From an uncultured Clostridia bacterium (GTDB lineage Bacteria > Bacillota > Clostridia > TANB77 > CAG-508), in NCBI GenBank assembly GCA_934129785.1, contig CAKOWW010000003.1, positions 24,315 to 88,314 on the forward strand: a stretch of 64,000 nt of DNA, in the 5' to 3' direction. Under the pieces are notes generated by a model that did not search any database, was not told where the DNA came from, and saw only the letters and a program-made list of their open reading frames with translations. The translations under genes were made by a program, and so were the position numbers. Shown here in pieces: positions 1,037-23,549 of this stretch (positions are counted from its first letter, which is position 1; each line of letters starts with the position of its first letter).

Positions 1037-2359
1037 ATGAAAATGAAAAACAAGAAAACTATAAGAAATGTGCTAATATTAGCAGGAATTGCAGTAACAG
1101 CATTATTTTTTATAAACATGAGCTTTGCATCATCAGATGGAAAAGTAAATGTTGAAACAGCAAACATAAGAGAAACAGCAGATGAAAATGCAAAAATCTT
1201 AGAACAGTTATCACAAGGAGACAATGTTGAAATACTAGAAAAACAAGGAAGCTGGTATAAAATAAAATCAAAAGGGATAACAGGATATCTAAGAGAAGAT
1301 CTAATAGAAGTAAAAAATGAAGAAAAAACTGTAGAAACTTCAGCAACAGTAGAAACAGAAAAACAAGAATCAACTGATAGTAATAAAGCAAACAATATTC
1401 AAGAAAATACAACTGAAGAAACAAATAGCGAAGAAAAAACTAAAAAAGTTTCAGAGAACACAAAATTAAAAATTGTACCTGCAATTAATGCAACAGATAT
1501 TTTAGAAGTAAAAAAAGATGAAGAAGTAACAGTTACAGAAACTTTAGGAGATTGGGTTTGTATTCAAACATCTACAACAAAAGGATGGATTAGAGCAAAC
1601 AAATTAAAATCAGCAAAAGAGGAAAAACAAGAAGAAACAAAAACAGAAGAACAACCACAAGTAGAAGAAAAACAAGAAACATTACTAAAAAAAGCATATA
1701 TTAATACTCAAACAGCAAATATGAGAAAAGAAGCAAATACAGCTTCAGAAATAGTAACATCCTTAACACTAAATACAGAAGTAGAAGTATATGCGGAAGA
1801 AAATGGTTGGAGCAAAGTAAAAGTAAATGGACAAGATGGATATATATCAACTACACTTTTAAGTGATAAAAAGATAGAAACATCAAGAAGTTTAGAAACA
1901 CCAAGAAAAAAAGCAGAAAGTACAACTACAAAAAATACTAGTACAAAGAAAGAAACAACTACACAAACAACAACTAGTACAACTACACAAACATCAGGAA
2001 AAGGGGCAACAGTTGTTTCAACTGCAAGAAATTATATAGGAAGTAAATATGTATATGGTGCAACTGGACCAAACAGTTTTGACTGTTCAGGATTTACACA
2101 ATATGTATTTAAATTACATGGTGTAAGTTTAAACAGAACTGCAGCAGCACAATATTCAAACGGAGTGGCTGTAGATAGATCAAACTTACAACCAGGAGAC
2201 TTAGTTATGTTTGGAAAATCTGGAATTAACCATGTTGGAATTTATATTGGTGGAGGTCAAATAGTTCATGCGGCTAATCCATCAAGAGGAGTAACAATAG
2301 ACACAATAACTTCAGGATATTACAACAATAACTATGTTGGAGCAAGAAGAGTTATGTAA
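1037..2359 (+). CDS. secreted cell-wall hydrolase with three SH3b repeats and a C-terminal NlpC/P60 domain
   Basis: N-terminal signal peptide; repeated GSWYKI..GYL / GDWVCI..GWI / NGWSKV..GYI SH3b-like motifs; C-terminal NlpC/P60 Cys/His region (FDCSGFTQYVF...HVGIYIGGGQIVHA). Confidence 0.8.
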   Translation: MKMKNKKTIRNVLILAGIAVTALFFINMSFASSDGKVNVETANIRETADENAKILEQLSQGDNVEILEKQGSWYKIKSKGITGYLREDLIEVKNEEKTVETSATVETEKQESTDSNKANNIQENTTEETNSEEKTKKVSENTKLKIVPAINATDILEVKKDEEVTVTETLGDWVCIQTSTTKGWIRANKLKSAKEEKQEETKTEEQPQVEEKQETLLKKAYINTQTANMRKEANTASEIVTSLTLNTEVEVYAEENGWSKVKVNGQDGYISTTLLSDKKIETSRSLETPRKKAESTTTKNTSTKKETTTQTTTSTTTQTSGKGATVVSTARNYIGSKYVYGATGPNSFDCSGFTQYVFKLHGVSLNRTAAAQYSNGVAVDRSNLQPGDLVMFGKSGINHVGIYIGGGQIVHAANPSRGVTIDTITSGYYNNNYVGARRVM

Positions 2360-2365
2360 GAAAGG

Positions 2366-4765
2366 ATGATTATAATTAAAAGACCAATTTTAGTTATAGT
2401 CATTGGATATATAATAGGAATTATAATGGGGCTATACAAAAATATAAGTATAGTCCCTTTGTATATTTTTTTGGCTATAATATATTTTATATATAAAAAA
2501 ATAAATTTATCAAAAAACAAAAAATTAAAATTCAAATTATTAAGTTTCAAAAGATATTTTAGATATATCAAATTAGTAATAAGTAAAAATGTGCTTGTTA
2601 CAATAATAATATCATCAATTATTTCTAATACAATCATTATAATTCAAAATAAAAGATACGAAAATAAATATAAAGATGGAGACCAAATATTTGGGAAAGC
2701 TGTTGTTATAAGTAATATGCAGGAAAAAGAATATAGCAATATGTACAAAATAAAACTTCTAAAAAATGGTGATAAATTTTATTTGAAATTGAATAAAAAG
2801 CAAAGCAAACTACAATATGGAGATGAAATAGAGCTAAAAGGAGAATTTATAGAACCACAAACAGCTAGAAATAAAGGAGGTTTTAATTATAAACAATATT
2901 TGAAAACATTGAAAATATATGGAACTATAAATGTGGAAAAAGTAGCCATTCTAGGAAAAAATAGAATTAATCCAATATTAAAATTTTCAAATGATATTCA
3001 TATAAAAATAGAAGAAAAAATAGAAAAATATTTAGATGAAAAACAAGCAGGAATTTTGAAAGGAATTTTATTAGGAGATTCAAAAAAAGTAGAAGAAGAA
3101 ATACAAGAAAACTTCAGAATAAGTAATATTTCACATGTTTTAGCAGTATCAGGTATGCATGTAAATTATATAATTTTAGGGATAGGTTGTTTATTAAAAC
3201 CATTATTTGGGAAAAGAAGAACAAGGAAAATAACAATAATATTCTTAGTGTTTTATATGTTTATAACAGGCTTTTCAGCTTCAATTGTAAGAGCAGGAGT
3301 AATGGGAATTATTATAATTTTAGGAAAGCTAATACATAGAAAAGAAGACACATGGACATCAATTTCAATTTCTTTATTAATTTTGTTAATAAACAATCCG
3401 TTTTCAATATTAAATATTAGTTTACAACTATCTTTTGCAGGAACAATGGGATTAGTGTTATTTAATAAAAAAATTCCTGGAATATTTTCAATAACACTAT
3501 GTGCACAAATAATGATATTTCCTATAATGATATATCATTTTAATATATTTGGAACATATTTTTTAATAACTAATTTATTAGCTGGAATAATAATTGGACC
3601 AATAATAATAATTGGAATTTTAGGAATTTTTAGTTCGATTTTTAGTTTAACAATAGCTAAAATGATATTTTTTATTGAAAAGATATCAGTAGAAATCTTA
3701 ATTTTAATATCTAAATTTTCAGAATTTTCAATGGCAAAAATTTATTTGCCAACACCCAGAATATGGCAAATAATTATATATTATATTATCGTATTTTTTA
3801 TAAAATCAATATATGAAGTTTATTCGGAAAAAAAGCCAAATGCAACTTTTATAAGAGTAAAAAATTTGCTAGCTTTGGCAAAATATAAATTTAGAAAAAA
3901 TAAAAGAAAAAACATAAAGAAAATAATGAGTATATTAATGATTTTAGTAGTTACATTTACAATAATAAAAAAACAATATAATATACTAAATATAAATTTT
4001 GTAGATGTTGGACAAGGAGATTCATGTTTTATTGTAACACCTAAAAATAAAACAATTTTAGTAGATGGAGGAGGAAGCCAATCTAAAGAATTTGATGTTG
4101 GGAAAAGTATATTATTACCATATATATTGAATAAAGGCTACACACAGATAGATTATATTGTAATTAGCCATTTTGATTATGACCATGTTGGTGGAATTTT
4201 ATACATTATGCAAGAAATAAAAGTGAAAAATATAATTATAGGAAAACAATTTGAAAATAGCCAAAACTATGAAAAGTTTGTAAATATAGTACAACAAAAA
4301 GATATAAAAGTTAGAATTGTAGAAGCAGGGGAAAATATAAAAATTGAGAAAGATTTAAATTTTAATGTAATATGGCCAAATTCTAAAAACGAAATTTCTG
4401 ATAATTCAATTAATAATAACTCTTTAGTATTTAAAATGATGTATAAGAAATTTTCGATGCTGTTTACAGGTGATATTGAAGAAATAGCTGAAAAGAAAAT
4501 ACTGCAAACTTGTAATGTTAAAAATTTAGAATCATTGGTTTTGAAAGTACCACATCATGGTTCTAAAACTTCTTCTAGTCAGGGATTTTTAGACGCAGTA
4601 AGACCTAAAATTGCGTTAATAGGTGTAGGAAAAAATAACAAATTTGGTCATCCTTCAGATATTACTTTAGAAAAGTTTAAAATGTATGATATAAAAGTGT
4701 ATAGAACAGACCAAAAAGGAGAAATTACCTTAAAAACAGATGGAAATAAAATAAAGATTTACTAA
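2366..4765 (+). CDS. comEC: DNA internalization competence protein ComEC/Rec2 (polytopic membrane domain plus C-terminal metallo-beta-lactamase)
   Basis: 799 aa; many TM segments; competence-domain motif HVLAVSGMH; C-terminal MBL motifs DVGQGDS, HFDYDHVGG, VPHHGSKTSS. Confidence 0.85.
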   Translation: MIIIKRPILVIVIGYIIGIIMGLYKNISIVPLYIFLAIIYFIYKKINLSKNKKLKFKLLSFKRYFRYIKLVISKNVLVTIIISSIISNTIIIIQNKRYENKYKDGDQIFGKAVVISNMQEKEYSNMYKIKLLKNGDKFYLKLNKKQSKLQYGDEIELKGEFIEPQTARNKGGFNYKQYLKTLKIYGTINVEKVAILGKNRINPILKFSNDIHIKIEEKIEKYLDEKQAGILKGILLGDSKKVEEEIQENFRISNISHVLAVSGMHVNYIILGIGCLLKPLFGKRRTRKITIIFLVFYMFITGFSASIVRAGVMGIIIILGKLIHRKEDTWTSISISLLILLINNPFSILNISLQLSFAGTMGLVLFNKKIPGIFSITLCAQIMIFPIMIYHFNIFGTYFLITNLLAGIIIGPIIIIGILGIFSSIFSLTIAKMIFFIEKISVEILILISKFSEFSMAKIYLPTPRIWQIIIYYIIVFFIKSIYEVYSEKKPNATFIRVKNLLALAKYKFRKNKRKNIKKIMSILMILVVTFTIIKKQYNILNINFVDVGQGDSCFIVTPKNKTILVDGGGSQSKEFDVGKSILLPYILNKGYTQIDYIVISHFDYDHVGGILYIMQEIKVKNIIIGKQFENSQNYEKFVNIVQQKDIKVRIVEAGENIKIEKDLNFNVIWPNSKNEISDNSINNNSLVFKMMYKKFSMLFTGDIEEIAEKKILQTCNVKNLESLVLKVPHHGSKTSSSQGFLDAVRPKIALIGVGKNNKFGHPSDITLEKFKMYDIKVYRTDQKGEITLKTDGNKIKIY

Positions 4766-4835
4766 TAATTGTATAAATTTGAAAAATAAGCAAATACTAT
4801 TAGAAAAGACATAAGTACAAAAAAGGAGAAAAGTG

Positions 4836-5447
4836 ATGAATAAGGTAATAATATCAATGATTTCTACTGTTGCAATAATCTTAGCAATAACGCTAGGGTT
4901 TGCATTTGGAAAATTTGGACAAAAAGAAGAAAAGGCAATACAACAAGAAGAAATAGCAAAAAACAACGAAATAATTGAAGATGAATGCACAGAAGAATAT
5001 ACGCAAATGGAAAATGAAAACTTACAAACAGCCTCTACTGAAGTTGAGGAAAAAATAGCGCCAAATGCAGAAATAATATTTAAAACAACATACGAAAAAT
5101 GTGGACATACAATAAGCAAATATGACAAGGTTTCAAATGATTTAGTTAACATGACCAAGGAAGAATTGGCAAGTAAATATGAAAGTTGGAATATCGAAAA
5201 ATTTTCTGATACACAAATTATATTAACAAAAACAGATGAAGAAGAATGTGGTGAACATTATATGGTAAGAGAAAAAAATGGCAAACTGGTTGTTTTTCGA
5301 ATACAAGAAAATGGTGTAGAAACAGAATATGAGACAACAGAAATTTCACTTGAATATATTCCACAAACTGATTCGATTAGTATAAAGAATGGAGTTAGAA
5401 TTAATGGAAATGAAGAATTAAATCAGTATTTAGAGAATTTTGAATAA
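4836..5447 (+). CDS. membrane-anchored protein with BofC_C-like C-terminal domain
   Basis: SD AAGGAG 7 nt upstream of the ATG; N-terminal TM; C-terminal HYMVREKNGKLVVF...ELNQYLENFE resembles the BofC C-terminal domain. Confidence 0.5.
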   Translation: MNKVIISMISTVAIILAITLGFAFGKFGQKEEKAIQQEEIAKNNEIIEDECTEEYTQMENENLQTASTEVEEKIAPNAEIIFKTTYEKCGHTISKYDKVSNDLVNMTKEELASKYESWNIEKFSDTQIILTKTDEEECGEHYMVREKNGKLVVFRIQENGVETEYETTEISLEYIPQTDSISIKNGVRINGNEELNQYLENFE

Positions 5448-5506
5448 AAGCTAAATTAAAAATGAGACTTAAGTTATTATTATAAACTTAAACCTCATTT
5501 TTATGT

Positions 5507-6097
5507 TTATTTTTTCTTTTCTTTTTTATCAACAGTAACTTCTTTTTTCAAATCTTGTTTATCAATAAATCCTTTTTGATATAAATCTTTAACATACATT
5601 ACTAATGCAAATACAGTAGTAACAATTGCTAAACAATAAAGTCCAAAATCTAAATTAGTCCAAATTTCAGGAAGTTCAAATTGTTTTACAAGTAAGGAAG
5701 CAACAATTGCTATGTAAAATAAAACTGTTGCAAGTTTTCCATACCATCTACTATAAACAACAACATCTTTTCCATAAAGGAAAGAAGCACCAACTATCAT
5801 TATAAACTCCTTAAAAAGGACAATTGCTAATATCCAAATAGGTATAATGTCGGTAATTACAAGAGATGTAAGTGTTGCAATTTGAGTTAATTTATCTGCT
5901 AATGGATCCATTAATTTTCCGAAATTAGAAATCAGGTTGAATTTTCTTGCAATAAATCCATCAGCTATATCTGTTAAACCAGAAAGGGTAAATACTATAA
6001 AAGCAATTATATATTGTCCAGTAAATATATAAAATAAAATTACTGGAATTAATAAAATTCTTATTATTGTTAGTATATTTGGTATATGTTTAAACAT
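5507..6097 (-). CDS. pgsA: CDP-diacylglycerol--glycerol-3-phosphate 3-phosphatidyltransferase
   Basis: CDP-alcohol phosphatidyltransferase motif DIADGFIARKF...GKLMDPLADKL. Confidence 0.8.
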   Translation of the reverse strand: MFKHIPNILTIIRILLIPVILFYIFTGQYIIAFIVFTLSGLTDIADGFIARKFNLISNFGKLMDPLADKLTQIATLTSLVITDIIPIWILAIVLFKEFIMIVGASFLYGKDVVVYSRWYGKLATVLFYIAIVASLLVKQFELPEIWTNLDFGLYCLAIVTTVFALVMYVKDLYQKGFIDKQDLKKEVTVDKKEKKK

Positions 6098-6106
6098 TTT
6101 TTTCTC

Positions 6107-8473
6107 CTATTTTACTTCAAATTTTAATTTATCATTTTCAAAATCTACTGCTACTGTTTGACCATCTAAAAGTTCACCTTTTAATATCATTTCAGATAAT
6201 TCATCTTCTACATATCTTTGAATAGCCCTTCTTAGAGGTCTAGCTCCAAATTTTATATCAGTACCTTTTTCTAATATATAATCTTTAGCACTTTTTGTTA
6301 TAGTCATTTTAATATCTTTATCATTAAGAGCTTTTTTTGTATCTTTTAACATTAAATCCACAATCTGTAACAATTGTTCTTTTGTTAAAGCATCAAAACT
6401 TATAATTTCATCAATTCTATTTAAGAATTCTGGTCTAAATACATCTTTTAAAGAATCAATTAATTTACCTTTGTCTACAGTTTGTTTACCAAAACCAATT
6501 GAGTTTGTATTAGTGTTTGAACCAGCGTTTGAAGTCATTATTATAATTGTATTTGAAAAACTTACAGTATTTCCTTGACTATCTGTTAATTTTCCATCAT
6601 CTAGTACTTGTAGTAAAATATTAAAAACATCTGGATGAGCTTTTTCAATTTCGTCTAATAGAATTATAGAATATGGTTTTCTTTTTACTTTATCAGTTAA
6701 TTGACCAGCATCATCATATCCAACATATCCTGGGGGAGCACCAATTAATTTTGAAGTTGAATGACTTTCCATATATTCAGACATATCAATTCTAATTATA
6801 TTATCTTCACTTCCAAACATTTCATAAGCTAAGCTTTTAGCAAGTTCTGTTTTACCTACACCAGTTGGACCTACAAATATAAATGAAGGTGGTCTTTTTG
6901 TACTTTTTAATCCTGCTCTATTTCTTCTTATAGCTCTTGCTACACAATTAACAGCTTCATCTTGACCAATAATTCTTTTATGAAGATTTGTTTCTAAATT
7001 TAATAGTTTTTGAGTTTCAGCTTCAGTAATTTTTTTAACTGGAATTTTAGTCCAACTTTCTATTACATTAGCAATATCTTGAATTGTTAATTGTTTAGGT
7101 TTCATTTTTTTGCTTAAAGTATCAATTTCTTCTATTAATTGACATTCGCGAGTTTTTAAATCTGCAGCTTTTTGATAATCTTCAGTAGAATCTGCTGCTA
7201 TAACTTCTTCTTTTTCAGATTGAACTTTACTTAGTTCTTGTTTTAACATCTCTAATTTATATAGGCTTTTATTTTCTAAGTTAATTCTAGAACAAGCTTC
7301 ATCTAGTATGTCTATTGCTTTATCAGGTAAAAATCTATCATGAATATATTTTTCTGACATAATAACAGCTTGACGAATAACATCTGAAGATATTTTGACT
7401 TTGTGATAATCTTCATAATATTTTTTAATTCCTTCCAAAATGCCTATAGAATCATCAATATTTGGTTCTTCTACAAGAACTTGTTGAAATCTTCTTTCTA
7501 ATGCTGAATCTTTTTCAATATATTTTCTATATTCTTTTAAAGTTGTAGTTCCAATTAATTGAATTTCTCCATTAGATAGAGCTGGTTTTAAGATGTTAGC
7601 TGCATTCATAGAATGTTCTCCATCTCCAGCACCTATAATGTTGTGAATTTCGTCAATAACTAAAATGATATTTCCATATTGCTTACATTCATCAATAATG
7701 CCTTTCATTCTAGATTCAAATTGACCTCTAAATTGTGTACCAGCGATTACAGATGTCATATCTAGTAAATAAACTTCTTTATTTAAAAGTTTTGCAGGTA
7801 CATTTTGATTAGCAATTCTAATTGCTAATCCTTGTGCAATAGCTGTTTTACCAACACCAGGTTCACCAATAAGGCAAGGATTATTTTTTGAACGTCTATT
7901 TAATATTTGTACAATTCTTTGGATTTCTTTTTCTCTACCTATAACTAAATCAAGTTCATTATTTTTTGCTTTATTTGTTAAGTTAGTTCCATAAGTATCT
8001 AAGAATTTCTTTTTCTTATTTTGGTTTTTCTTTTTTTCTACTTTTACTCTTTTTCTACTATTGCCAGGTTCTTCTTGTTCATCATTATCTTTATTCTTCA
8101 TCATGCTTGAAAAAATTGAACCTAAAGGAATAGCTGCTCCAGAAATTTTTGGACCATTTTCAGGGTCATCTTCATTATTTTGCTCAAAAGTTATAGCGCC
8201 TTCTATGTTTTCTATATCTTCTAAGTTAATATTTTCAGCTAAATCTTTAAAAATATTTTCAAATTGTTGTGTCATATCATTAATATTTAATTTGTCTTTA
8301 GAAAGAATTTCATTTTGATTTGTTATAACTTCAAGAGGATTTATACCTTTTTTCTTGGCACAGTCATAACAATAACCTTCTAAAGTCTCTTTTCCATTTT
8401 CTATTTTTTTATAAAAAACCACTGCTGGTTTATCATTACATTCTGAACATAACATGTGTTTTAAATTCCTCAT
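6107..8473 (-). CDS. clpE: ClpE-like Clp/Hsp100 AAA+ ATPase with N-terminal zinc ribbon
   Basis: Two Walker A sites ([23 protein letters not shown]); N-terminal CSEC..CYDC zinc ribbon in place of Clp_N repeats; coiled-coil linker between the AAA modules. Confidence 0.75.
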
Positions 8474-8753
8474 TTCTATAAAAATTAATATATATTATAA
8501 TAACGCAAAAAAGGGGAATAGTCAATATTTTAATACTATTTTAAGATACTTAAAGTTACTGGTTAATGTATTATTATTAATAAAAAGAAATCCTTGATAT
8601 ATAAGTCTTTCATTACATTCATCGGCTTATTATAAAATTTAAGAAATTCTATGCAGTTTTGTCATAAAATCAACTTTAAAAATTTTATTGCTAAAAACAA
8701 ATAAAAATGTTATAATCAAAAAGTAAACAAATGTAAAAAAACGAGGGAAGAAA

Positions 8754-9617
8754 ATGAATTTAACGTTACCAAAAGAAACAGAAATAGGAAAAAAACAAAT
8801 TATAATATATATAAGTATTATCTTAATATGCATTATATCTATAGTTATAGCATTTTATGTGCAATTTTATGCAAGAATAGATATCGCATCATTAGTAGGT
8901 TTAAAAGAAAAAAAAGAATTTGGACAAAAAACAGAAGAGGAAATAGAAACATTAAAATCAAATTTTAACACTATATTTATAAATAATATAGAAAATGATA
9001 ATGATGAAAACAACGGAAAAAAAGAGCAACAAGATAGAAAAATTGTATATACAAAATATGAGAAGAAAGAAAGCAAAATTAATAGTTATGATTTAGAGGT
9101 TCATATACCATACATAAATATTGATAATGAAGTTGTAAAAAAATATAATCAAAAAATAGAAGAAATATTTGCTAATAAAGCAAGAAATATCCTAGGCAGT
9201 GAAAATAAAAATATAATTTATAATGTTGAATATGTGGCAAATATATATGACGGCATATTATCTGTTATGGTTAAATCAAATTTAAAAGAAGGTTCAAATG
9301 CACAAAAAGTAGTGGTGCAAACTTATAATTATGATTTAAGAAATAATAAGGAAATAACAATAGATGAGATGTTAAAAATTAAAGGAATGGATAAGCAACT
9401 TGTTCAAAATAAAATTAATGATGAAATTTCGGAAGAAGAAAAAAAGGTAGAAGATTTGAAAAATCTTGGATATAATATTTATACTAGAGATACTTCAAGT
9501 GATATGTATGATTTAGAAAATGCTTCAGAATTTTATGTTACAGAAGATACATTGTATATTATATATGCATATGGAAATCAAACTTCAACTAGTGAAATGG
9601 ATTTAGTAATTTTATAA
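8754..9617 (+). CDS. hypothetical membrane-anchored protein (single N-terminal TM, K/E/N-rich ectodomain)
   Basis: 287-aa ORF. A sigmaA-like promoter TTGCTA-17-TATAAT lies upstream at about 8685-8713. No confident family assignment. Confidence 0.55.
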   Translation: MNLTLPKETEIGKKQIIIYISIILICIISIVIAFYVQFYARIDIASLVGLKEKKEFGQKTEEEIETLKSNFNTIFINNIENDNDENNGKKEQQDRKIVYTKYEKKESKINSYDLEVHIPYINIDNEVVKKYNQKIEEIFANKARNILGSENKNIIYNVEYVANIYDGILSVMVKSNLKEGSNAQKVVVQTYNYDLRNNKEITIDEMLKIKGMDKQLVQNKINDEISEEEKKVEDLKNLGYNIYTRDTSSDMYDLENASEFYVTEDTLYIIYAYGNQTSTSEMDLVIL

Positions 9618-9628
9618 TATTTGGTATT

Positions 9629-9750
9629 AAACTTTAATATATATTTTTACGCAGTGACAATTCGGGGGGACCGACAAATTATGGGCTGTTATGAAATTAC
9701 AGCCCATTATGCAGTTGGGAGTCACAAGTAAAAACTATATATTAAAGTTT
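9629..9750 (+). repeat. structured ~120-nt element, copy 1: conserved core flanked by covarying inverted arms
   Basis: Core tacgcagtgacaattcggggggaccgac, then hairpin atgggctgt..acagcccat, then gttgggagtcaca. An outer AT-rich inverted repeat aaactttaatatatat/atatattaaagttt encloses it. Second copy at 39195-39320. Confidence 0.6.
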
Positions 9751-9820: not shown

Positions 9821-9852
9821 AAAAAAGAAGAGTTTTTATAAAACTCTTCTCT
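9821..9852 (-). terminator. rho-independent terminator downstream of htrA
   Basis: Hairpin agaagagttttt/aaactcttct followed by a T-run on the minus strand. Confidence 0.55.
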
Positions 9853-9962
9853 TTGAAAATAAAAGGGGATGTTTTTTATTTCAAATCAGTACTTTCTACT
9901 GACTATGGTTGTATTATACTAACCAATTTTGTCCATTGTGTGAACTAAAAGTGAAAACTTAG

Positions 9963-11228
9963 TTAAGGTTGTTCACCTAAAGTTAAAGTTAATTCTTTTT
10001 CTTGTCCATTTCTATTTACTTTAATTTTCATTTCATCACCAATTTTGTGAGTATTTTTAATTTCATTTAACTCATCCATTGTTGTAATTTTTTTACCATC
10101 TGCTTCAATAATAACATCGCCAACTTTAACTTCTGCTTTTTCGGCAGCTGAGAAATCTTCTATAGATTTAACATAGATACCTTGAACTAAATTGTTAGCT
10201 TTGGCTGTTTTTTCATCTAAGTCCATACCAGAAATTCCAATATAAGGTCTTTTAACTTTGCTATATTGAATTAATTGTGAAGTTATATCTGTAGTTGAAT
10301 TAATTGGAATTGCAAATCCCATACCTTCAATTCCTGTACCAGAAAGTTTTAAAGTGTTAATTCCAATTACTTTACCTTCACTATTTACTAATGCACCACC
10401 ACTGTTACCAGAGTTTATAGCAGCATCTGTTTGGATTAAAGTGAATTTTTTACCATCAGAATCTGTAACTTCTCTATTAACGGCGCTTATAACACCACAA
10501 GTTATACTACTTTGCATTCCTAGAGGGTTACCAACAGCCATAGCAAATTCACCAACTTTTACACTATCAGAATCTGCAAATTCTGCTTTAGATAAACCTG
10601 TTTTCTCAATTTTTATAACAGCTAAGTCTGTTTGTTCATCTTTTCCAATAATTTTTGCTTCATATTCAGTTTTATCATTAAATAAAGTTACAGTTACCTT
10701 TGTTGCTTCAGATACTTCATAGTAAGATTCAGAAGAAGATGATGAAACAATATGATTATTTGTTAAAATATATCCATCTTCACTAATTATAATACCAGAT
10801 CCACTAGCTGTTGCAGTAGAATTTTGAGTTTGTCTACCAAACATTGAGATTAAAGAATTTACATTATATTCAACTTTAATTCCAACAATTGAAGGTAAAA
10901 TCTTATTTGCTGCATATACAGAAGTATCTGAATAATTTGAAAGTGAAGTTTGACTAACATATCCTGTATTTAAATTATTAGAATTTGTGTTAGAGCCTGA
11001 ATTATTTGATGTTGAACCTAATAATTTGTTTTTTATAGAAGGCACACCAAAACAAGTTCCAACTACTACAGTGCAACCAAGTACGCCACTTACAAATGGT
11101 AGTAAAAATCCATTTGCAAAGCCCATTTTTGCTTTATGTTCAGATTTATAAGCTTTATTTATTGTAGCTTGATTTTGAACAGCTTTAAAATTTGATTTGT
11201 TTTCTTGTTCTTTTTTATTTTCTTCCAT
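9963..11228 (-). CDS. htrA: HtrA/DegP-family serine protease with N-terminal TM anchor and C-terminal PDZ domain
   Basis: Catalytic triad context (TNNHIV, DLAVIKI, GNSGGALVN) followed by a PDZ region. Confidence 0.85.
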   Translation of the reverse strand: MEENKKEQENKSNFKAVQNQATINKAYKSEHKAKMGFANGFLLPFVSGVLGCTVVVGTCFGVPSIKNKLLGSTSNNSGSNTNSNNLNTGYVSQTSLSNYSDTSVYAANKILPSIVGIKVEYNVNSLISMFGRQTQNSTATASGSGIIISEDGYILTNNHIVSSSSSESYYEVSEATKVTVTLFNDKTEYEAKIIGKDEQTDLAVIKIEKTGLSKAEFADSDSVKVGEFAMAVGNPLGMQSSITCGVISAVNREVTDSDGKKFTLIQTDAAINSGNSGGALVNSEGKVIGINTLKLSGTGIEGMGFAIPINSTTDITSQLIQYSKVKRPYIGISGMDLDEKTAKANNLVQGIYVKSIEDFSAAEKAEVKVGDVIIEADGKKITTMDELNEIKNTHKIGDEMKIKVNRNGQEKELTLTLGEQP

Positions 11229-21354: not shown

Positions 21355-23193
21355 TTATTCAACTGTAACTGATTTTGCTAAGTTTCTAGGTTTATCTACA
21401 TCTAATCCTTTTTCCTTAGAAATATAATATGAAAGTAATTGTAGTGGTACAACAGATAATATAGGTGAGATAAATGGGTTTGTTTCAGGTATTTTAATAA
21501 CCAAATCAAACATAGTATTATCAACTTGTTGGTTTGTCACAACCAAAGTTTTTGCACCTCTTGTAATAACTTCTTGTATATTACTTACAGTTTTTTTAAC
21601 TAATTTAGGATCTGTCATTATACTAATTACAGTAATTCCATTTTCTATTAATGCTATAGGTCCATGTTTTAGCTCTCCTGCTGGATAACTTTCTGCATGT
21701 ATATAAGAAATCTCTTTAAGTTTTAAAGCAGACTCTCTTGCAACAGTTTCATCAACACCTCTACCTAAGAAAAATACATCTTTTTCTTGATAAATTTTAT
21801 GACCAAATTCTTTTACTTTATCAGCTGTTTTTAAAACCTCATCAAGTTTTTTAGGTAACTCAAGAATATCATGTTTTAAATGTGTAACTTCTTCTTTTTC
21901 AATTTCCATTGTTTCAGCAAAGTAAATTGATAATATAGAAAGTAGGGCAACTTGTGATGTATATGCTTTTGTAGATGCAACAGCAATTTCAGGACCAGCA
22001 TGAGTATAAATAGAATAGTCAGCTTCTCTAGTTATAGAGCTTCCTATAACATTGCTTATTGCAAGGGTTTTTGCTCCTTTTTCTCTTGAAAGTTTTAATG
22101 CTGCGATAGTATCTGCAGTTTCACCTGATTGAGATATAAAAATACATAAAGTTTTATCATCAATAATTAGATCTCTATATCTAAATTCAGAAGCAATATC
22201 AACTTCTGTTGGTATTTTGCAAAGTTTTTCTAAAATATTTTTAGCAACTAAACCAGCATGCATAGCAGTGCCACAAGCAACTAAATAAATTTTTCTTAAT
22301 CCACATAAATATTCTTTTGTAAAATCTAATTCTTCAAAATCACATTTTGCGTTTTCATTTAATTTCGCTCCTAAAGTTTCCCTAATTGCAGTTGGTTGTT
22401 CATATATTTCTTTTAACATATAATCTTCATATCCATCTTTTTCTGCACTTGTTGCATTCCATTCAATTACTTCAACTTTTTTCTCAATAGGATTTAAATC
22501 CATATCAAAGAATTTAACATCATTTCTTGTTAAAAGAACAAGTTCTAAATCATTTAAAAGATAGAAATTTCTTGTAAATGATAAAATAGCTGGAATATCA
22601 GAAGAAATGTAATTTTCATTTTCTCCTTTTCCTATAACTAAGGGGCTGTCTTTTCTTATTACAATCATATTATCAGGATACTTGCTTGAAATTATTTCTA
22701 AAGCAAAGCTTCCTTTTAAATCTTTACAAGCATTTCTTACAGCTCTTAAGAATTTTAGTTTATCATCTTTCTCATCTTTTGTGTAATAATAATGAATAAG
22801 ATTTGGTATAACTTCTGTATCTGTTTGAGAGTAGAAAGTATACCCATTATTTGTTAAAAAAGTTCTTAATTCATTGTAATTTTCAATAATTCCATTATGA
22901 ACAACTCCAAATGTTTTTGAATTATCATAATGAGGGTGAGAATTTTCTTTTGAAGGTTTTCCATGAGTTGCCCATCTTGTATGTGCTATACCAATTGTTC
23001 CTTCTAAATCATCAATTCCTGGTAATTTATATAAATTTTTGACTCTACCTTTATTTTTCATAAATGAAAGTCCATCTTTTTCTATTGTTGCAATCCCCGC
23101 TGAGTCATAACCTCTGTATTCTAATCTTAAAAGTCCGTTAATTAATATTGGACTTGCTTTTCTTGTTCCTATGTAACCTACAATTCCACACAT
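21355..23193 (-). CDS. glmS: glutamine--fructose-6-phosphate aminotransferase
   Basis: Starts MCGIVGYIG (the N-terminal Cys nucleophile). Two SIS domains. Ends ...VTVE. The ORF-track start at 23256 lies inside the ribozyme leader and is rejected. Confidence 0.9.
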   Translation of the reverse strand: MCGIVGYIGTRKASPILINGLLRLEYRGYDSAGIATIEKDGLSFMKNKGRVKNLYKLPGIDDLEGTIGIAHTRWATHGKPSKENSHPHYDNSKTFGVVHNGIIENYNELRTFLTNNGYTFYSQTDTEVIPNLIHYYYTKDEKDDKLKFLRAVRNACKDLKGSFALEIISSKYPDNMIVIRKDSPLVIGKGENENYISSDIPAILSFTRNFYLLNDLELVLLTRNDVKFFDMDLNPIEKKVEVIEWNATSAEKDGYEDYMLKEIYEQPTAIRETLGAKLNENAKCDFEELDFTKEYLCGLRKIYLVACGTAMHAGLVAKNILEKLCKIPTEVDIASEFRYRDLIIDDKTLCIFISQSGETADTIAALKLSREKGAKTLAISNVIGSSITREADYSIYTHAGPEIAVASTKAYTSQVALLSILSIYFAETMEIEKEEVTHLKHDILELPKKLDEVLKTADKVKEFGHKIYQEKDVFFLGRGVDETVARESALKLKEISYIHAESYPAGELKHGPIALIENGITVISIMTDPKLVKKTVSNIQEVITRGAKTLVVTNQQVDNTMFDLVIKIPETNPFISPILSVVPLQLLSYYISKEKGLDVDKPRNLAKSVTVE

Positions 23194-23227
23194 AGTAATC
23201 CTCCTTAATAATAAATTTAATATGGAA

Positions 23228-23392
23228 TTGAAAGCATGCAAAATAATGCTTATCATATTAAATTTTGTTACAATATTACTATTGCTTTTTAATTAATACT
23301 ATGGCTTAAGCTAGCCACTAGAGCATCCGCCGAATATTTCGATAACTCTAGACCTCGTCAACACTAATATGTAGTGTCCAGGCGCTTTATTA
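23228..23392 (-). ncRNA. glmS ribozyme (GlcN6P-sensing self-cleaving riboswitch) in the glmS 5' UTR
   Basis: Minus-strand sequence AAAGCGCCUGGACACUACAUAUUAGUGUUGACGAGGUCUAGAGUUAUCGAAAUAUUCGGCGGAUGC matches the conserved glmS ribozyme core (AGCGCC cleavage site, GACGAGG, GUUAUCGAA...UUCGGCGGAUGC). A P4 hairpin lies at 23231-23253. Confidence 0.85.
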
Positions 23393-23549
23393 TTTAACAT
23401 GTACTCCTTTCTTTTATTTTTTATTGTGCATTTCTTTCAACTTATGTTATTATATTATCCTAAAAATTGAAATGTTACAAGAGTATTTAGAAAATTTCTT
23501 GAATTTGGTCAAATTATAATATATAATTACGAAAGAAAAGAGGGATAAT

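What the first reader, a model, noticed from the sequence alone, without database searches (positions are those of the whole stretch)
9629..9750. Family of ~120-nt structured elements with compensatory stem changes (copy 1 of 2)
Two loci share a conserved core but differ in their stems in a compensatory way. At 9629-9750 and 39195-39320 the core is gcagtgacaattcggggggaccgac...g(t/g)tgggagtcaca, and the internal hairpin keeps the same loop ctgttatgNaattacag. The stem sequences differ yet stay complementary: atgggctgt/acagcccat in copy 1 versus actgtctgt/acagacagt in copy 2. The outer AT-rich arms also differ between copies while remaining inverted complements of each other. Both copies begin 12-35 nt after a stop codon and sit inside TA-repeat tracts. 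Covariation in two independent stems suggests selection for secondary structure. Candidates are a new small RNA or attenuator/terminator class, or a hairpin-type miniature mobile element such as a REP/BIME-like repeat or a single-strand transposon end. I could not match it to glmS, T-box, SRP, preQ1, ZTP or hammerhead consensus sequences.
Basis: seen in the sequence. Interest (0 to 1): 0.8.

Follow-up and report, generated by a model that had tools for sequence, protein, structure and literature searches.

The report
Mobile hairpin DNA repeat, gut Clostridia
The two look-alike ~125-base hairpins are copies of a small, previously undescribed mobile DNA repeat that has inserted between housekeeping genes of an uncultured gut Clostridium, so the matching stem changes are more likely a property of a jumping palindrome than proof of a new functional RNA.

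Summary
Both copies share an exact 25-nt core, fold into long bulged hairpins, and differ in their stems in a compensated way. In 20 copies from about 8 related gut "Clostridium sp." genomes, 18 of 37 base pairs show double changes.

The evidence points to mobile DNA rather than a conserved RNA gene.
- Copy 1 is a ~128-bp insertion. Relatives with an 85%-identical neighbouring protein have an exact empty site. More distant relatives lack both copies.
- Another species has a copy where the window has none.
- A ~195-bp subfamily carries 14-bp terminal inverted repeats and 8-bp target-site duplications.
- Both window copies occur flipped in place in other strains, and copy 1 occurs as a tandem duplication.
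- Orientation relative to genes is mixed, and neighbours are housekeeping genes.
- At one resident copy the core decays between strains.

No match was found in Rfam, the plasmid collection or the literature. I file it as a new family of a known kind, a MITE/REPIN-like palindromic repeat. It is unusual in that the bulged centre, not the ends, is the best-conserved part. An added RNA role is not excluded but is unsupported. Interest is modest.

The parts
9618..9745 (+). Copy 1: the segment inserted relative to the empty site of relatives (about 128 bp; the boundary is ambiguous by 3 nt because TAA is repeated at both junctions)
   Evidence: Empty site ...CTATAA|AGTTTTCTTG... in L046-L048 versus filled site in L043-45 and the window
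9629..9750 (+). Copy 1: whole hairpin. The outer arms are 9629-9650 and 9728-9750. The last 5 nt, AGTTT (9746-9750), are also present in the empty site.
   Evidence: Fold; inverted repeat I8
9654..9725 (+). Copy 1 core module. It comprises the 5-bp stem GTGAC (9654-9658) / GTCAC (9721-9725), the 12-nt bulge AATTCGGGGGGA (9659-9670) opposite GA (9719-9720), and the stem CCGAC (9671-9675) / GTTGG (9714-9718) with a G.T pair. The apical hairpin is 9681-9689 / 9699-9707, with loop 9690-9698.
39197..39319 (+). Copy 2: whole hairpin (perfect 21-bp arms at 39199-39219 and 39297-39317), lying between the YlbF-like gene (ends 39179) and the 229-aa gene (starts 39346)
   Evidence: I6; it is absent from relatives L052-L056
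39223..39294 (+). Copy 2 core module. It comprises GTGAC (39223-39227) / GTCAC (39290-39294), the bulge AATTCGGGGGGA (39228-39239) opposite GA (39288-39289), CCGAC (39240-39244) / GGTGG (39283-39287), and the apical hairpin with loop TATGTAATT.

Best explanation
Both loci are copies of a low-copy, non-autonomous mobile DNA repeat (MITE/REPIN-like). It is confined, as far as sampled, to a small clade of uncultured human-gut 'Clostridium sp.' genomes. The unit is a 115-130 bp near-palindrome. AT-rich arms enclose an asymmetric module made of a 5-bp stem, a 12-nt G-rich bulge and an inner hairpin. In some genomes the same module sits in the centre of a ~195-bp element with 14-bp terminal inverted repeats (GTTACAATTCACAG). 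That longer element makes 8-bp target duplications.

Shown:
- It inserts into short intergenic spacers next to housekeeping genes.
- It is present or absent between close relatives.
- It can duplicate in tandem.
- Its asymmetric centre flips in place by exchange within the perfect outer part of the arms.

Inferred:
- It is moved in trans by a transposase encoded elsewhere. For the long form the 8-bp duplications suggest a DDE-type enzyme. The short form has no terminal repeats and an asymmetric junction, which suggests a hairpin/ssDNA route like REPIN-RAYT or IS200/IS605.
- The conserved centre is what that enzyme (or a host factor) recognises. Its start, GT(A/G)ACAATTC, resembles the terminal repeat GTTACAATTC.
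- The compensated stem changes arise for one or both of two reasons. Only copies that keep the palindrome propagate, or the two arms correct each other by the same intra-element exchange that causes the inversions.

When transcribed with its neighbours the element would form a long RNA duplex. That is a likely side effect, not its reason for existing.
For: - Multi-copy in related genomes: 18 exact-core hits in 8 MAGs, with 3-4 per MAG in four of them. Further diverged copies were found with the covariance model.
- Empty versus filled site for copy 1. The 85% relatives read CTATAA|AGTTTT; the 93-100% relatives carry ~128 bp there; the 68% relatives lack it.
- Copy 2 is absent from 69-73% relatives.
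- L004 has a copy between orthologues of window genes where the window has none.
- The long subfamily has TIRs plus 8-bp direct repeats: L003 TATTTATT (8/8), L017 ATAAAATT (8/8), L016 AATTATTC (8/8), L015 7/8.
- Copy 1 and L009 share identical arms at unrelated loci.
- In-place inversion of copy 1: contigs from ten other assemblies at this locus carry it inverted, and for the seven I aligned flank identity to the window is about 93-99%.
- In-place inversion of copy 2: two haplotypes, each seen in at least 4 assemblies.
- Tandem duplication with a decayed second unit.
- Orientation relative to neighbouring genes is mixed, and all copies are intergenic.
- The 20 flanking genes tested are housekeeping genes.
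- At a resident copy, 5 strain differences fall in the core against 1 in about 150 nt around it.
- REPINs show the same compensated hairpin changes, tandem clusters and an asymmetric intermediate (PMC3116915).
Against: - No transposase or autonomous parent was found, and none of the flanking genes tested is one. Whole genomes could not be searched.
- The window copies themselves have no recognisable terminal repeats. Copy 1's junction gives only a 3-bp TAA repeat or an imperfect 8-bp repeat (TAATATTT in the window, TAATGTTT in L043, versus TAAAGTTT).
- Copy number is low for a REP-like family.
- The best-conserved part is the centre rather than the ends, which is unusual for MITEs and REPINs.
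- The G-rich strand folds better than its complement in 23 of 24 copies. G.T outnumbers A.C by 8 to 2 outside an invariant G.T pair. This hints at one functional single strand, which could be RNA as well as ssDNA.
Confidence: 0.75

Rival explanations
1. It is primarily a functional structured RNA: a cis-acting 3'-UTR or intercistronic element, or a small RNA. On this view the invariant bulge (AAUUCGGGGGGA opposite GA) is a protein- or ligand-binding or tertiary motif. One possibility is a k-turn-like tandem G.A arrangement. Another is SD-like or anti-SD-like tracts that affect translation or RNase III processing of neighbouring genes. Mobility would be secondary.
For: - Strong covariation.
- The loop CTGTTA...TTACAG is invariant although my pattern did not constrain it.
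- The G-rich strand is more stable in 23 of 24 copies and there is a G.T bias.
- Both window copies lie inside transcription units. Copy 1 is before the terminator at 9822-9854, and copy 2 is between two co-directional genes 14 and 23 nt away.
- GA/GA flanking the bulge resembles a k-turn. This is from memory and untested.
Against: - No Rfam family matches even at E<=10.
- Either strand can face the neighbouring genes: 10 copies are antisense to both neighbours and 6 are sense.
- The same locus carries opposite orientations in different strains.
- It is absent from close relatives that have the same genes.
- The core decays at one resident locus.
- One-sided (wobble) changes are rare compared with double changes.
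- There is no consistent promoter or terminator.
Confidence: 0.12
2. It is a programmed invertible switch (inverton). A site-specific recombinase acting in trans flips the core between the arms. This changes which strand is transcribed, or the direction of a weak outward promoter, and so phase-varies the neighbouring genes.
For: - Both window loci exist in both orientations in nature, with exchange inside the arms.
- The arms share a loose consensus, TTTA(A/T)TATAT(A)TTTTTTA.
- A -35-like TTGTCA in the core, with -10-like hexamers in the arm, lies on the C-rich strand of both copies.
Against: - Orientation tracks haplotype rather than varying freely. All ten other contigs at the copy 1 locus have one orientation. 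Copy 2's orientations go with distinct flank haplotypes.
- Several copies lie between convergent genes, where a switch has nothing to drive.
- No recombinase gene lies next to any copy.
- The promoter-like matches are no better than expected in AT-rich DNA.
- Hairpin-flanked spacers flip spontaneously in other systems (chloroplast minute inversions: Kelchner & Wendel 1996, reference seen).
Confidence: 0.07
3. It is an integron attC-like recombination site. The lead was that the core, (A)GTAACAATTCGGGGGGACCGAC, resembles the aadA1 attC GTCTAACAATTCGTTCAAGCCGAC as I recall it.
For: It shares TAACAATTCG plus CCGAC at the same spacing with one attC (from memory). It is a folded hairpin with an unpaired bulge located just after stop codons.
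Against: - The stem next to the core is GTGAC/GTCAC in the window and varies freely between copies (GTAAC, GTGCC, GCAAC, GTGTC). It therefore does not keep the RYYYAAC/GTTRRRY boxes.
- Stems of 20-60 bp extend beyond it, unlike attC.
- Copies are scattered among housekeeping genes rather than arranged in cassette arrays.
Confidence: 0.01

Closest known systems
REPINs / REP-BIME elements mobilised by RAYT (TnpA-REP) transposases
   Same: Short intergenic palindromic repeats that fold into long hairpins. Compensated changes across the hairpin are common, tandem clusters occur, there are no classical terminal repeats or target duplications, and the excised or inserted unit is asymmetric (PMC3116915; compare).
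   Different: REPINs are doublets of a conserved REP at the ends with a variable spacer. Here the centre is conserved and the ends vary. REPINs number tens to hundreds per genome and are known mainly from Proteobacteria; here there are about 3-5 perfect copies per MAG in Clostridia. No RAYT gene could be looked for.
Bacterial MITEs (for example Correia elements of Neisseria, RUP and BOX of Streptococcus pneumoniae, ERIC of enterobacteria); comparison from my own knowledge
   Same: They are 100-200 bp, non-coding and intergenic, occur in either orientation, and are present or absent between strains. The long subfamily has TIRs with target duplications (8 bp). They are co-transcribed and form long RNA hairpins.
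   Different: The window-type copies lack the TIRs. No parent insertion sequence is known. An invariant bulged core with nested hairpin is not a usual MITE feature.
Minute inversions of hairpin loops in chloroplast non-coding DNA (Kelchner & Wendel 1996; Kim & Lee 2005; references seen)
   Same: A spacer between short inverted repeats flips recurrently in place without a dedicated recombinase. This is what the two window loci show between strains.
   Different: Those are ordinary terminator-like hairpins, not members of a dispersed repeat family.
Invertons (recombinase-driven invertible promoters and switches of gut bacteria, the C. difficile RecV sites); from my own knowledge
   Same: An IR-flanked segment of about 80 nt found in both orientations.
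   Different: There is no evidence of within-strain switching, of a recombinase, or of an orientation-dependent promoter. The element also sits where no gene could be controlled.

Membership tests
MITE (non-autonomous DDE-transposon derivative) | Short, non-coding, several dispersed copies per genome | tested here: met
   115-195 bp with no ORF of 50 aa or more inside. There are 3-4 exact-core copies in each of four MAGs and 2 in the 64-kb window.
MITE (non-autonomous DDE-transposon derivative) | Terminal inverted repeats shared by the copies | tested here: inconclusive
   The long subfamily has the 14-bp GTTACAATTCACAG / CTGTGAATTGTAAC. The window-type copies have complementary arms whose outer ends differ between copies, and no such TIR within 400 bp.
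MITE (non-autonomous DDE-transposon derivative) | Target-site duplication of fixed length | tested here: inconclusive
   8 bp in the long subfamily: three at 8/8 and one at 7/8. For window copy 1 there is only TAA (3 bp) or an imperfect 8-bp repeat: 7/8 in L043, 6/8 in the window.
MITE (non-autonomous DDE-transposon derivative) | Presence/absence at orthologous sites | tested here: met
   Empty site for copy 1 in L046-48. Copy 2 is absent in L052-56. L004 has a copy that is missing at window 5448-5533.
MITE (non-autonomous DDE-transposon derivative) | Autonomous insertion sequence with the same ends | not testable with these tools
None was seen in the loci held or in plasmids.
REPIN / REP (RAYT-mobilised) | Hairpin-forming intergenic palindrome with compensated arm changes | tested here: met
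   compare PMC3116915.
REPIN / REP (RAYT-mobilised) | Two inverted conserved REP units at the ends with a less conserved spacer between | tested here: not met
   The conserved part is the single asymmetric centre, and the outer arms are the variable part.
REPIN / REP (RAYT-mobilised) | A single-copy RAYT (Y1 transposase) gene flanked by the repeats | not testable with these tools
   The 20 flanking genes checked are housekeeping genes. Whole MAGs could not be scanned.
Structured regulatory RNA / sRNA | Match to a curated RNA family | tested here: not met
   There is no Rfam hit at gathering thresholds. At E<=10 around either copy only three chance-level snoRNA/sRNA matches appear (E 1.7-9.2, 15-17 bits, far below their gathering scores).
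Structured regulatory RNA / sRNA | Fixed orientation relative to the transcription unit, and retention at orthologous loci | tested here: not met
   Orientation is mixed, copies are flipped between strains, and the element is absent from close relatives.
Structured regulatory RNA / sRNA | Covariation that supports base pairing | tested here: inconclusive
   It is statistically strong. However, the same is expected for a DNA palindrome that propagates or corrects its arms, and wobble intermediates are rare (6 one-sided versus 82 double-changed cells).
Inverton (programmed invertible element) | IR-flanked segment found in both orientations | tested here: met
   Seen between strains at both window loci.
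Inverton (programmed invertible element) | Both orientations within one strain or population, and a cognate recombinase | not testable with these tools
   No reads are available. There is no recombinase next to any copy. Orientation goes with haplotype.
Integron attC site | R''/R' boxes RYYYAAC ... GTTRRRY at the base of the hairpin, with cassette arrays | tested here: not met
   The window copies read CAGTGAC ... GTCACAA, and the pair varies freely among copies. Copies are scattered among core genes.

The most novel reading that the evidence does not exclude
The invariant bulged module could be more than the handle of a selfish repeat. One reading is that it is the recognition structure of a so far unknown hairpin/ssDNA mobilisation system in Clostridia, a Firmicute counterpart of REPIN-RAYT. 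Another is that it is a functional RNA module carried on a mobile, flippable hairpin. Insertion and in-place inversion would then rewire the processing or translation of neighbouring genes in an orientation-dependent way. The G-rich strand shows SD-like GGGGGGA/UGGGAG, and the other strand shows anti-SD-like UCCCCCC/CUCCCA beside the downstream ribosome-binding site of copy 2.
Probability: 0.15. Interest if true: 0.65.

Novelty: new member of a known kind. Interest (0 to 1): 0.35.

Why it matters
It adds an undescribed palindromic mobile repeat family from uncultured human-gut Clostridia, a group where REP/MITE-like repeats are little studied. It is also a clean cautionary case. Textbook-looking compensatory base changes in two nested stems, with 0 of 500 shuffles reaching the observed covariation, come here from a jumping and flipping DNA palindrome. 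Covariation screens for new RNAs in metagenomes need a mobility check: empty sites, orientation, and target duplications. If the conserved bulged centre proves to be the recognition site of a new mobilising enzyme, or a working RNA module, the family would become more interesting.

Tried and rejected
- Rfam at gathering thresholds on the whole window, and at E<=10 around both copies, gave only glmS, a tRNA and three chance snoRNA/sRNA matches.
- A scan of viral contigs for the core found nothing.
- The metagenome scan added almost only the same UMGS1734 contigs plus a chance GC-rich hit. The Nonomuraea hit in the genome scan is also chance.
- A plasmid BLAST with a full long element found nothing.
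- A literature search for the core string found nothing. A MITE/Clostridium search found nothing relevant.
- The attC idea was rejected on the R-box test.
- I considered that the variable outer arms are pre-existing terminator hairpins into which a core inserts. This was rejected because identical arms occur at unrelated loci (window copy 1 and L009). Also, L004 carries its own separate terminator beside the element.
- A promoter inside the element: the matches are no better than the AT-rich background and are not conserved in spacing.
- A search for the long-form TIR near the window copies found only the core's own GTGACAATTC.
- My automatic arm-extension script failed on the short type because of the GCA/AA internal loop, so I used the folds instead.
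- The exact 229-aa downstream protein of copy 2 is not on record. The 123-aa start of the YlbF-like gene gave one short contig. The 111-aa start worked.

Full report
**1. The observation**

The 25-nt core GCAGTGACAATTCGGGGGGACCGAC occurs exactly twice in the window, at 9651-9675 and 39220-39244, both on the + strand. None are expected by chance. Read directly, both loci have the same plan:
- AT-rich outer arms of 20-23 bp.
- A 3-nt mismatch.
- A 5-bp stem, GTGAC/GTCAC.
- A 12-nt bulge, AATTCGGGGGGA, opposite GA.
- A stem CCGAC/G(T/G)TGG.
- An inner hairpin whose stem differs between the copies (ATGGGCTGT/ACAGCCCAT versus ACTGTCTGT/ACAGACAGT) under the same loop.

Both fold far better than shuffled sequence, with z = -8.3 and -11.7; the complementary strands score almost as well.

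**2. Not a known RNA family**

cmscan of the whole window at gathering thresholds finds only a glmS ribozyme (23246-23397, minus strand) and one tRNA. Permissive scans (E<=10) around each copy give nothing for copy 1 and three chance-level matches (E 1.7-9.2) for copy 2. The core string occurs in no paper of the library.

**3. The family**

I scanned one genome per species with AATTCGGGGGGACCGAC-N20-50-TGGGAG. This gave 18 real hits in eight uncultured gut 'Clostridium sp./Clostridia' MAGs. Four of those MAGs carry 3-4 each. There was also one chance hit in Nonomuraea. Viral contigs gave none. The JGI metagenome set gave mostly the same UMGS1734 contigs.

A covariance model built on 20 copies (A2, R1) found no further copy in the window. 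It did find diverged copies in the fetched loci:
- L014:1665-1792, with one core substitution.
- L002:2669-2826, with a much altered core and a larger apex.

The perfect core in L002-L019 is imposed by my pattern. The unbiased extra copies show that the core does vary.

**4. Covariation**

On A2, 96.2% of cells are paired and 18 of 37 pairs have changes on both sides, with 0 of 500 shuffles reaching this. Sliding the partners drops pairing to 40-48%. The 5-bp stem next to the core reads GTGAC/GTCAC, GTAAC/GTTAC, GTGCC/GGCAC, GCAAC/GTTGC and GTGTC/GACAC. Base pairing is therefore maintained.

Three points limit what that means.
- Double changes vastly outnumber one-sided wobble changes (82 versus 6 cells).
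- The strand signal is weak. G.T outnumbers A.C by 8 to 2 outside one invariant G.T pair, and the G-rich strand is more stable in 23 of 24 copies, by about 4 kcal/mol on average.

**5. Evidence that it is mobile DNA**

(a) Empty site. I took homologues of the 287-aa protein upstream of copy 1 and fetched their contigs.
- Relatives with an 85%-identical protein read ...GTAATTCTATAA|AGTTTTCTTGTTTTATAGAAG...
- Relatives at 93-100% have about 128 bp inserted at that point, corresponding to window 9618-9745.
- The 68% relatives also lack it.
- The junction shows a 3-bp TAA repeat or an imperfect 8-bp repeat (TAATGTTT / TAAAGTTT).
- The last 5 nt of the right arm (AGTTT) are present in the empty site. 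The inserted unit is therefore asymmetric, with an 11-nt tail plus a hairpin that lacks its last 5 nt.

(b) Copy 2 is missing from relatives whose downstream protein is 69-73% identical. Their spacers are 38-62 bp.

(c) L004 is syntenic with window 1796-9599 at about 82% identity. It has a copy between the orthologues of the genes that end at window 5448 and 5533, where the window has only a terminator hairpin.

(d) A ~195-bp subfamily (L003, L013, L015, L016, L017, L019) carries the same module at its centre. It ends in GTTACAATTCACAG / CTGTGAATTGTAAC and is flanked by 8-bp direct repeats: TATTTATT, ATAAAATT and AATTATTC at 8/8, and ACAATAAA/ACAATCAA at 7/8.

(e) Window copy 1 and L009 have identical arms (AAACTTTAATATATATTTTTA) at unrelated loci, so the arms travel with the core.

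(f) All copies are intergenic and usually within 7-50 nt of the neighbouring genes. Orientation to those genes is mixed: 10 are antisense to both neighbours, 6 are sense to both, and the rest lie between convergent or divergent genes.

(g) The 20 flanking genes tested are housekeeping genes (SpoIIAA/AB, Veg, SipL, TrmB, Alr, FemAB, GerA, TsaE, MreB, GdpP and others). None is a transposase or recombinase.

(h) At one resident copy, two strains differ at 5 positions inside the core but at only 1 in the ~150 nt of arms and flanks. The host is therefore not preserving the core there.

**6. Inversion and duplication in place**

Copy 1:
- Contigs from ten other assemblies carry the core as the exact reverse complement between the same flanks. 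One group is L020-L026, whose 287-aa protein is identical to the window's. The other is L043-L045, from the 93% relatives.
- For L020-L026 the flanks aligned to the window at about 93-99% identity.
- The inverted core matches over 121 nt with 1-2 mismatches.
- An arm imperfection (an extra G) moves to the other arm with it. The exchange therefore lies in the outer perfect 14-15 bp, AACTTTAATATATA.
- L020, L022, L023 and L024 in addition have two tandem units, the second one decayed.

Copy 2:
- Two haplotypes exist, each in at least four independent assemblies.
- A (window, L038, L040, UMGS1734) has the G-rich strand on +.
- B (L039, L041 = GCA_023451815.1, L042, L027) has it inverted.
- In B the arms are changed in a compensated way (GATGATATATAT/ATATATATCATC becomes AGTAATATATAT/ATATATATTACT), and the element sits after the same CTAAAT(T).

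Orientation goes with haplotype, which argues for occasional evolutionary flips rather than rapid phase variation. Hairpin-flanked spacers are known to flip spontaneously (chloroplast minute inversions; references seen). The same intra-element exchange would also homogenise the arms, so it offers a DNA-level source of 'compensatory' changes.

**7. How it most likely works**

Shown: it is a dispersed, insertion-polymorphic, flippable, tandemly duplicable DNA palindrome.

Inferred: it is moved in trans.
- The long form behaves like a classical MITE (TIR plus 8-bp duplication), so a DDE-type transposase is likely.
- The short form found in the window has no TIR and an asymmetric junction. That is closer to REPIN or IS200/IS605-type hairpin/ssDNA mobilisation.
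- The conserved centre is a plausible enzyme or host-factor recognition site. It begins GT(A/G)ACAATTC, which resembles the TIR GTTACAATTC.

Because both window copies lie inside transcription units, they must also be made as RNA with 20-25 bp perfect duplexes. Effects on mRNA processing are therefore possible but untested. Promoter-like matches inside the element (TTGTCA-17/18-TATCAT/TAAAGT on the C-rich strand) are no better than the AT-rich background.

**8. Comparison with known systems**

It works most like REPINs and bacterial MITEs. It fails REPIN membership on architecture, because it has a conserved centre rather than two terminal REPs. Copy number is also low. MITE membership is met for the long subfamily, but TIR and target duplication remain inconclusive for the window copies.

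It is not an attC site. The R boxes are not kept, long stems extend beyond them, and there are no cassette arrays. It meets only the weakest criterion of an inverton. It is not in Rfam. The GA/GA pairs flanking the bulge recall a k-turn, but with a 10-nt rather than 3-nt loop. That is a recollection, not a test.

**9. Verdict**

This is a new family of a known kind, a palindromic non-autonomous mobile repeat. It has one unusual feature, the invariant bulged centre, and a well-documented in-place inversion polymorphism.

Confidence is 0.75 for mobile DNA as the primary nature, about 0.12 for a primary RNA function and about 0.07 for a programmed switch. Interest is 0.35.

Noticed in passing
window 23246-23397 (-): A full-length glmS ribozyme/riboswitch (89.6 bits) lies directly upstream of the 633-aa ORF at 21355-23256 (-), presumably glmS. 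It is an ordinary, known element.
   Followed up: no
L005:1329-1480 (-): A different ~150-nt long hairpin with 22-bp arms GAAAGCTTACTATATGATTTTT / AAAAATCATATAGTAAGCTTTC and an unrelated, more GC-rich centre. It was picked up weakly (28.6 bits) by the model, probably through its arms. It may be another palindromic repeat family in the same genomes.
   Followed up: no
L020:3865-4190 (also L022, L023, L024): Strains 98-99% identical to the window carry copy 1 as a tandem duplication of a ~158-bp unit (flank plus hairpin). The second unit has a decayed core (GGGGAGGAACAAT). It also has a compensated C-G to T-A change in the inner hairpin.
   Followed up: partly
L014:1665-1792 versus L037:1514-1641: These are orthologous copies in two strains. 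Five differences cluster in the conserved core (G6/G5, ACAGAC/ACCGAC, TTGGG/CCTAAG) against one in about 150 nt of arms and flanks. The unpaired core seems to mutate or decay faster than the paired arms.
   Followed up: partly
L029:1-282: Here the hairpin module sits at a contig start. A right-end TIR (GTGTGAATTGTAAC) lies about 150 nt further on, with unrelated sequence in between. This may be a larger derivative of the parent transposon.
   Followed up: no
L030:574-802: A copy is nested inside a further 25-nt perfect inverted repeat (ATAAAAATCAATATATATTATTT...), with 43 nt on the left side and 8 nt on the right side between that repeat and the hairpin. It is another asymmetric, extended form.
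   Followed up: no
window 9822-9854: A 15-bp stem with T-runs on both sides lies between the convergent genes 8754-9617 (+) and 9963-11228 (-, HtrA-like). It is the likely bidirectional terminator, which places copy 1 inside the 3' UTR of the upstream gene.
   Followed up: no
window 9654-9675; L017:6804-6817: The start of the core, GT(G/A)ACAATTC, resembles the terminal inverted repeat GTTACAATTC of the long subfamily. From memory, it also resembles the aadA1 attC start TCTAACAATTCG...CCGAC. The attC resemblance failed the R-box test. The TIR resemblance is unexplained.
   Followed up: partly
L018:3894-4826 (+): The gene upstream of one UMGS1734 copy has a weak Replic_Relax (PF13814) match. 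This is the only mobile-element-like neighbour among the 20 tested.
   Followed up: no
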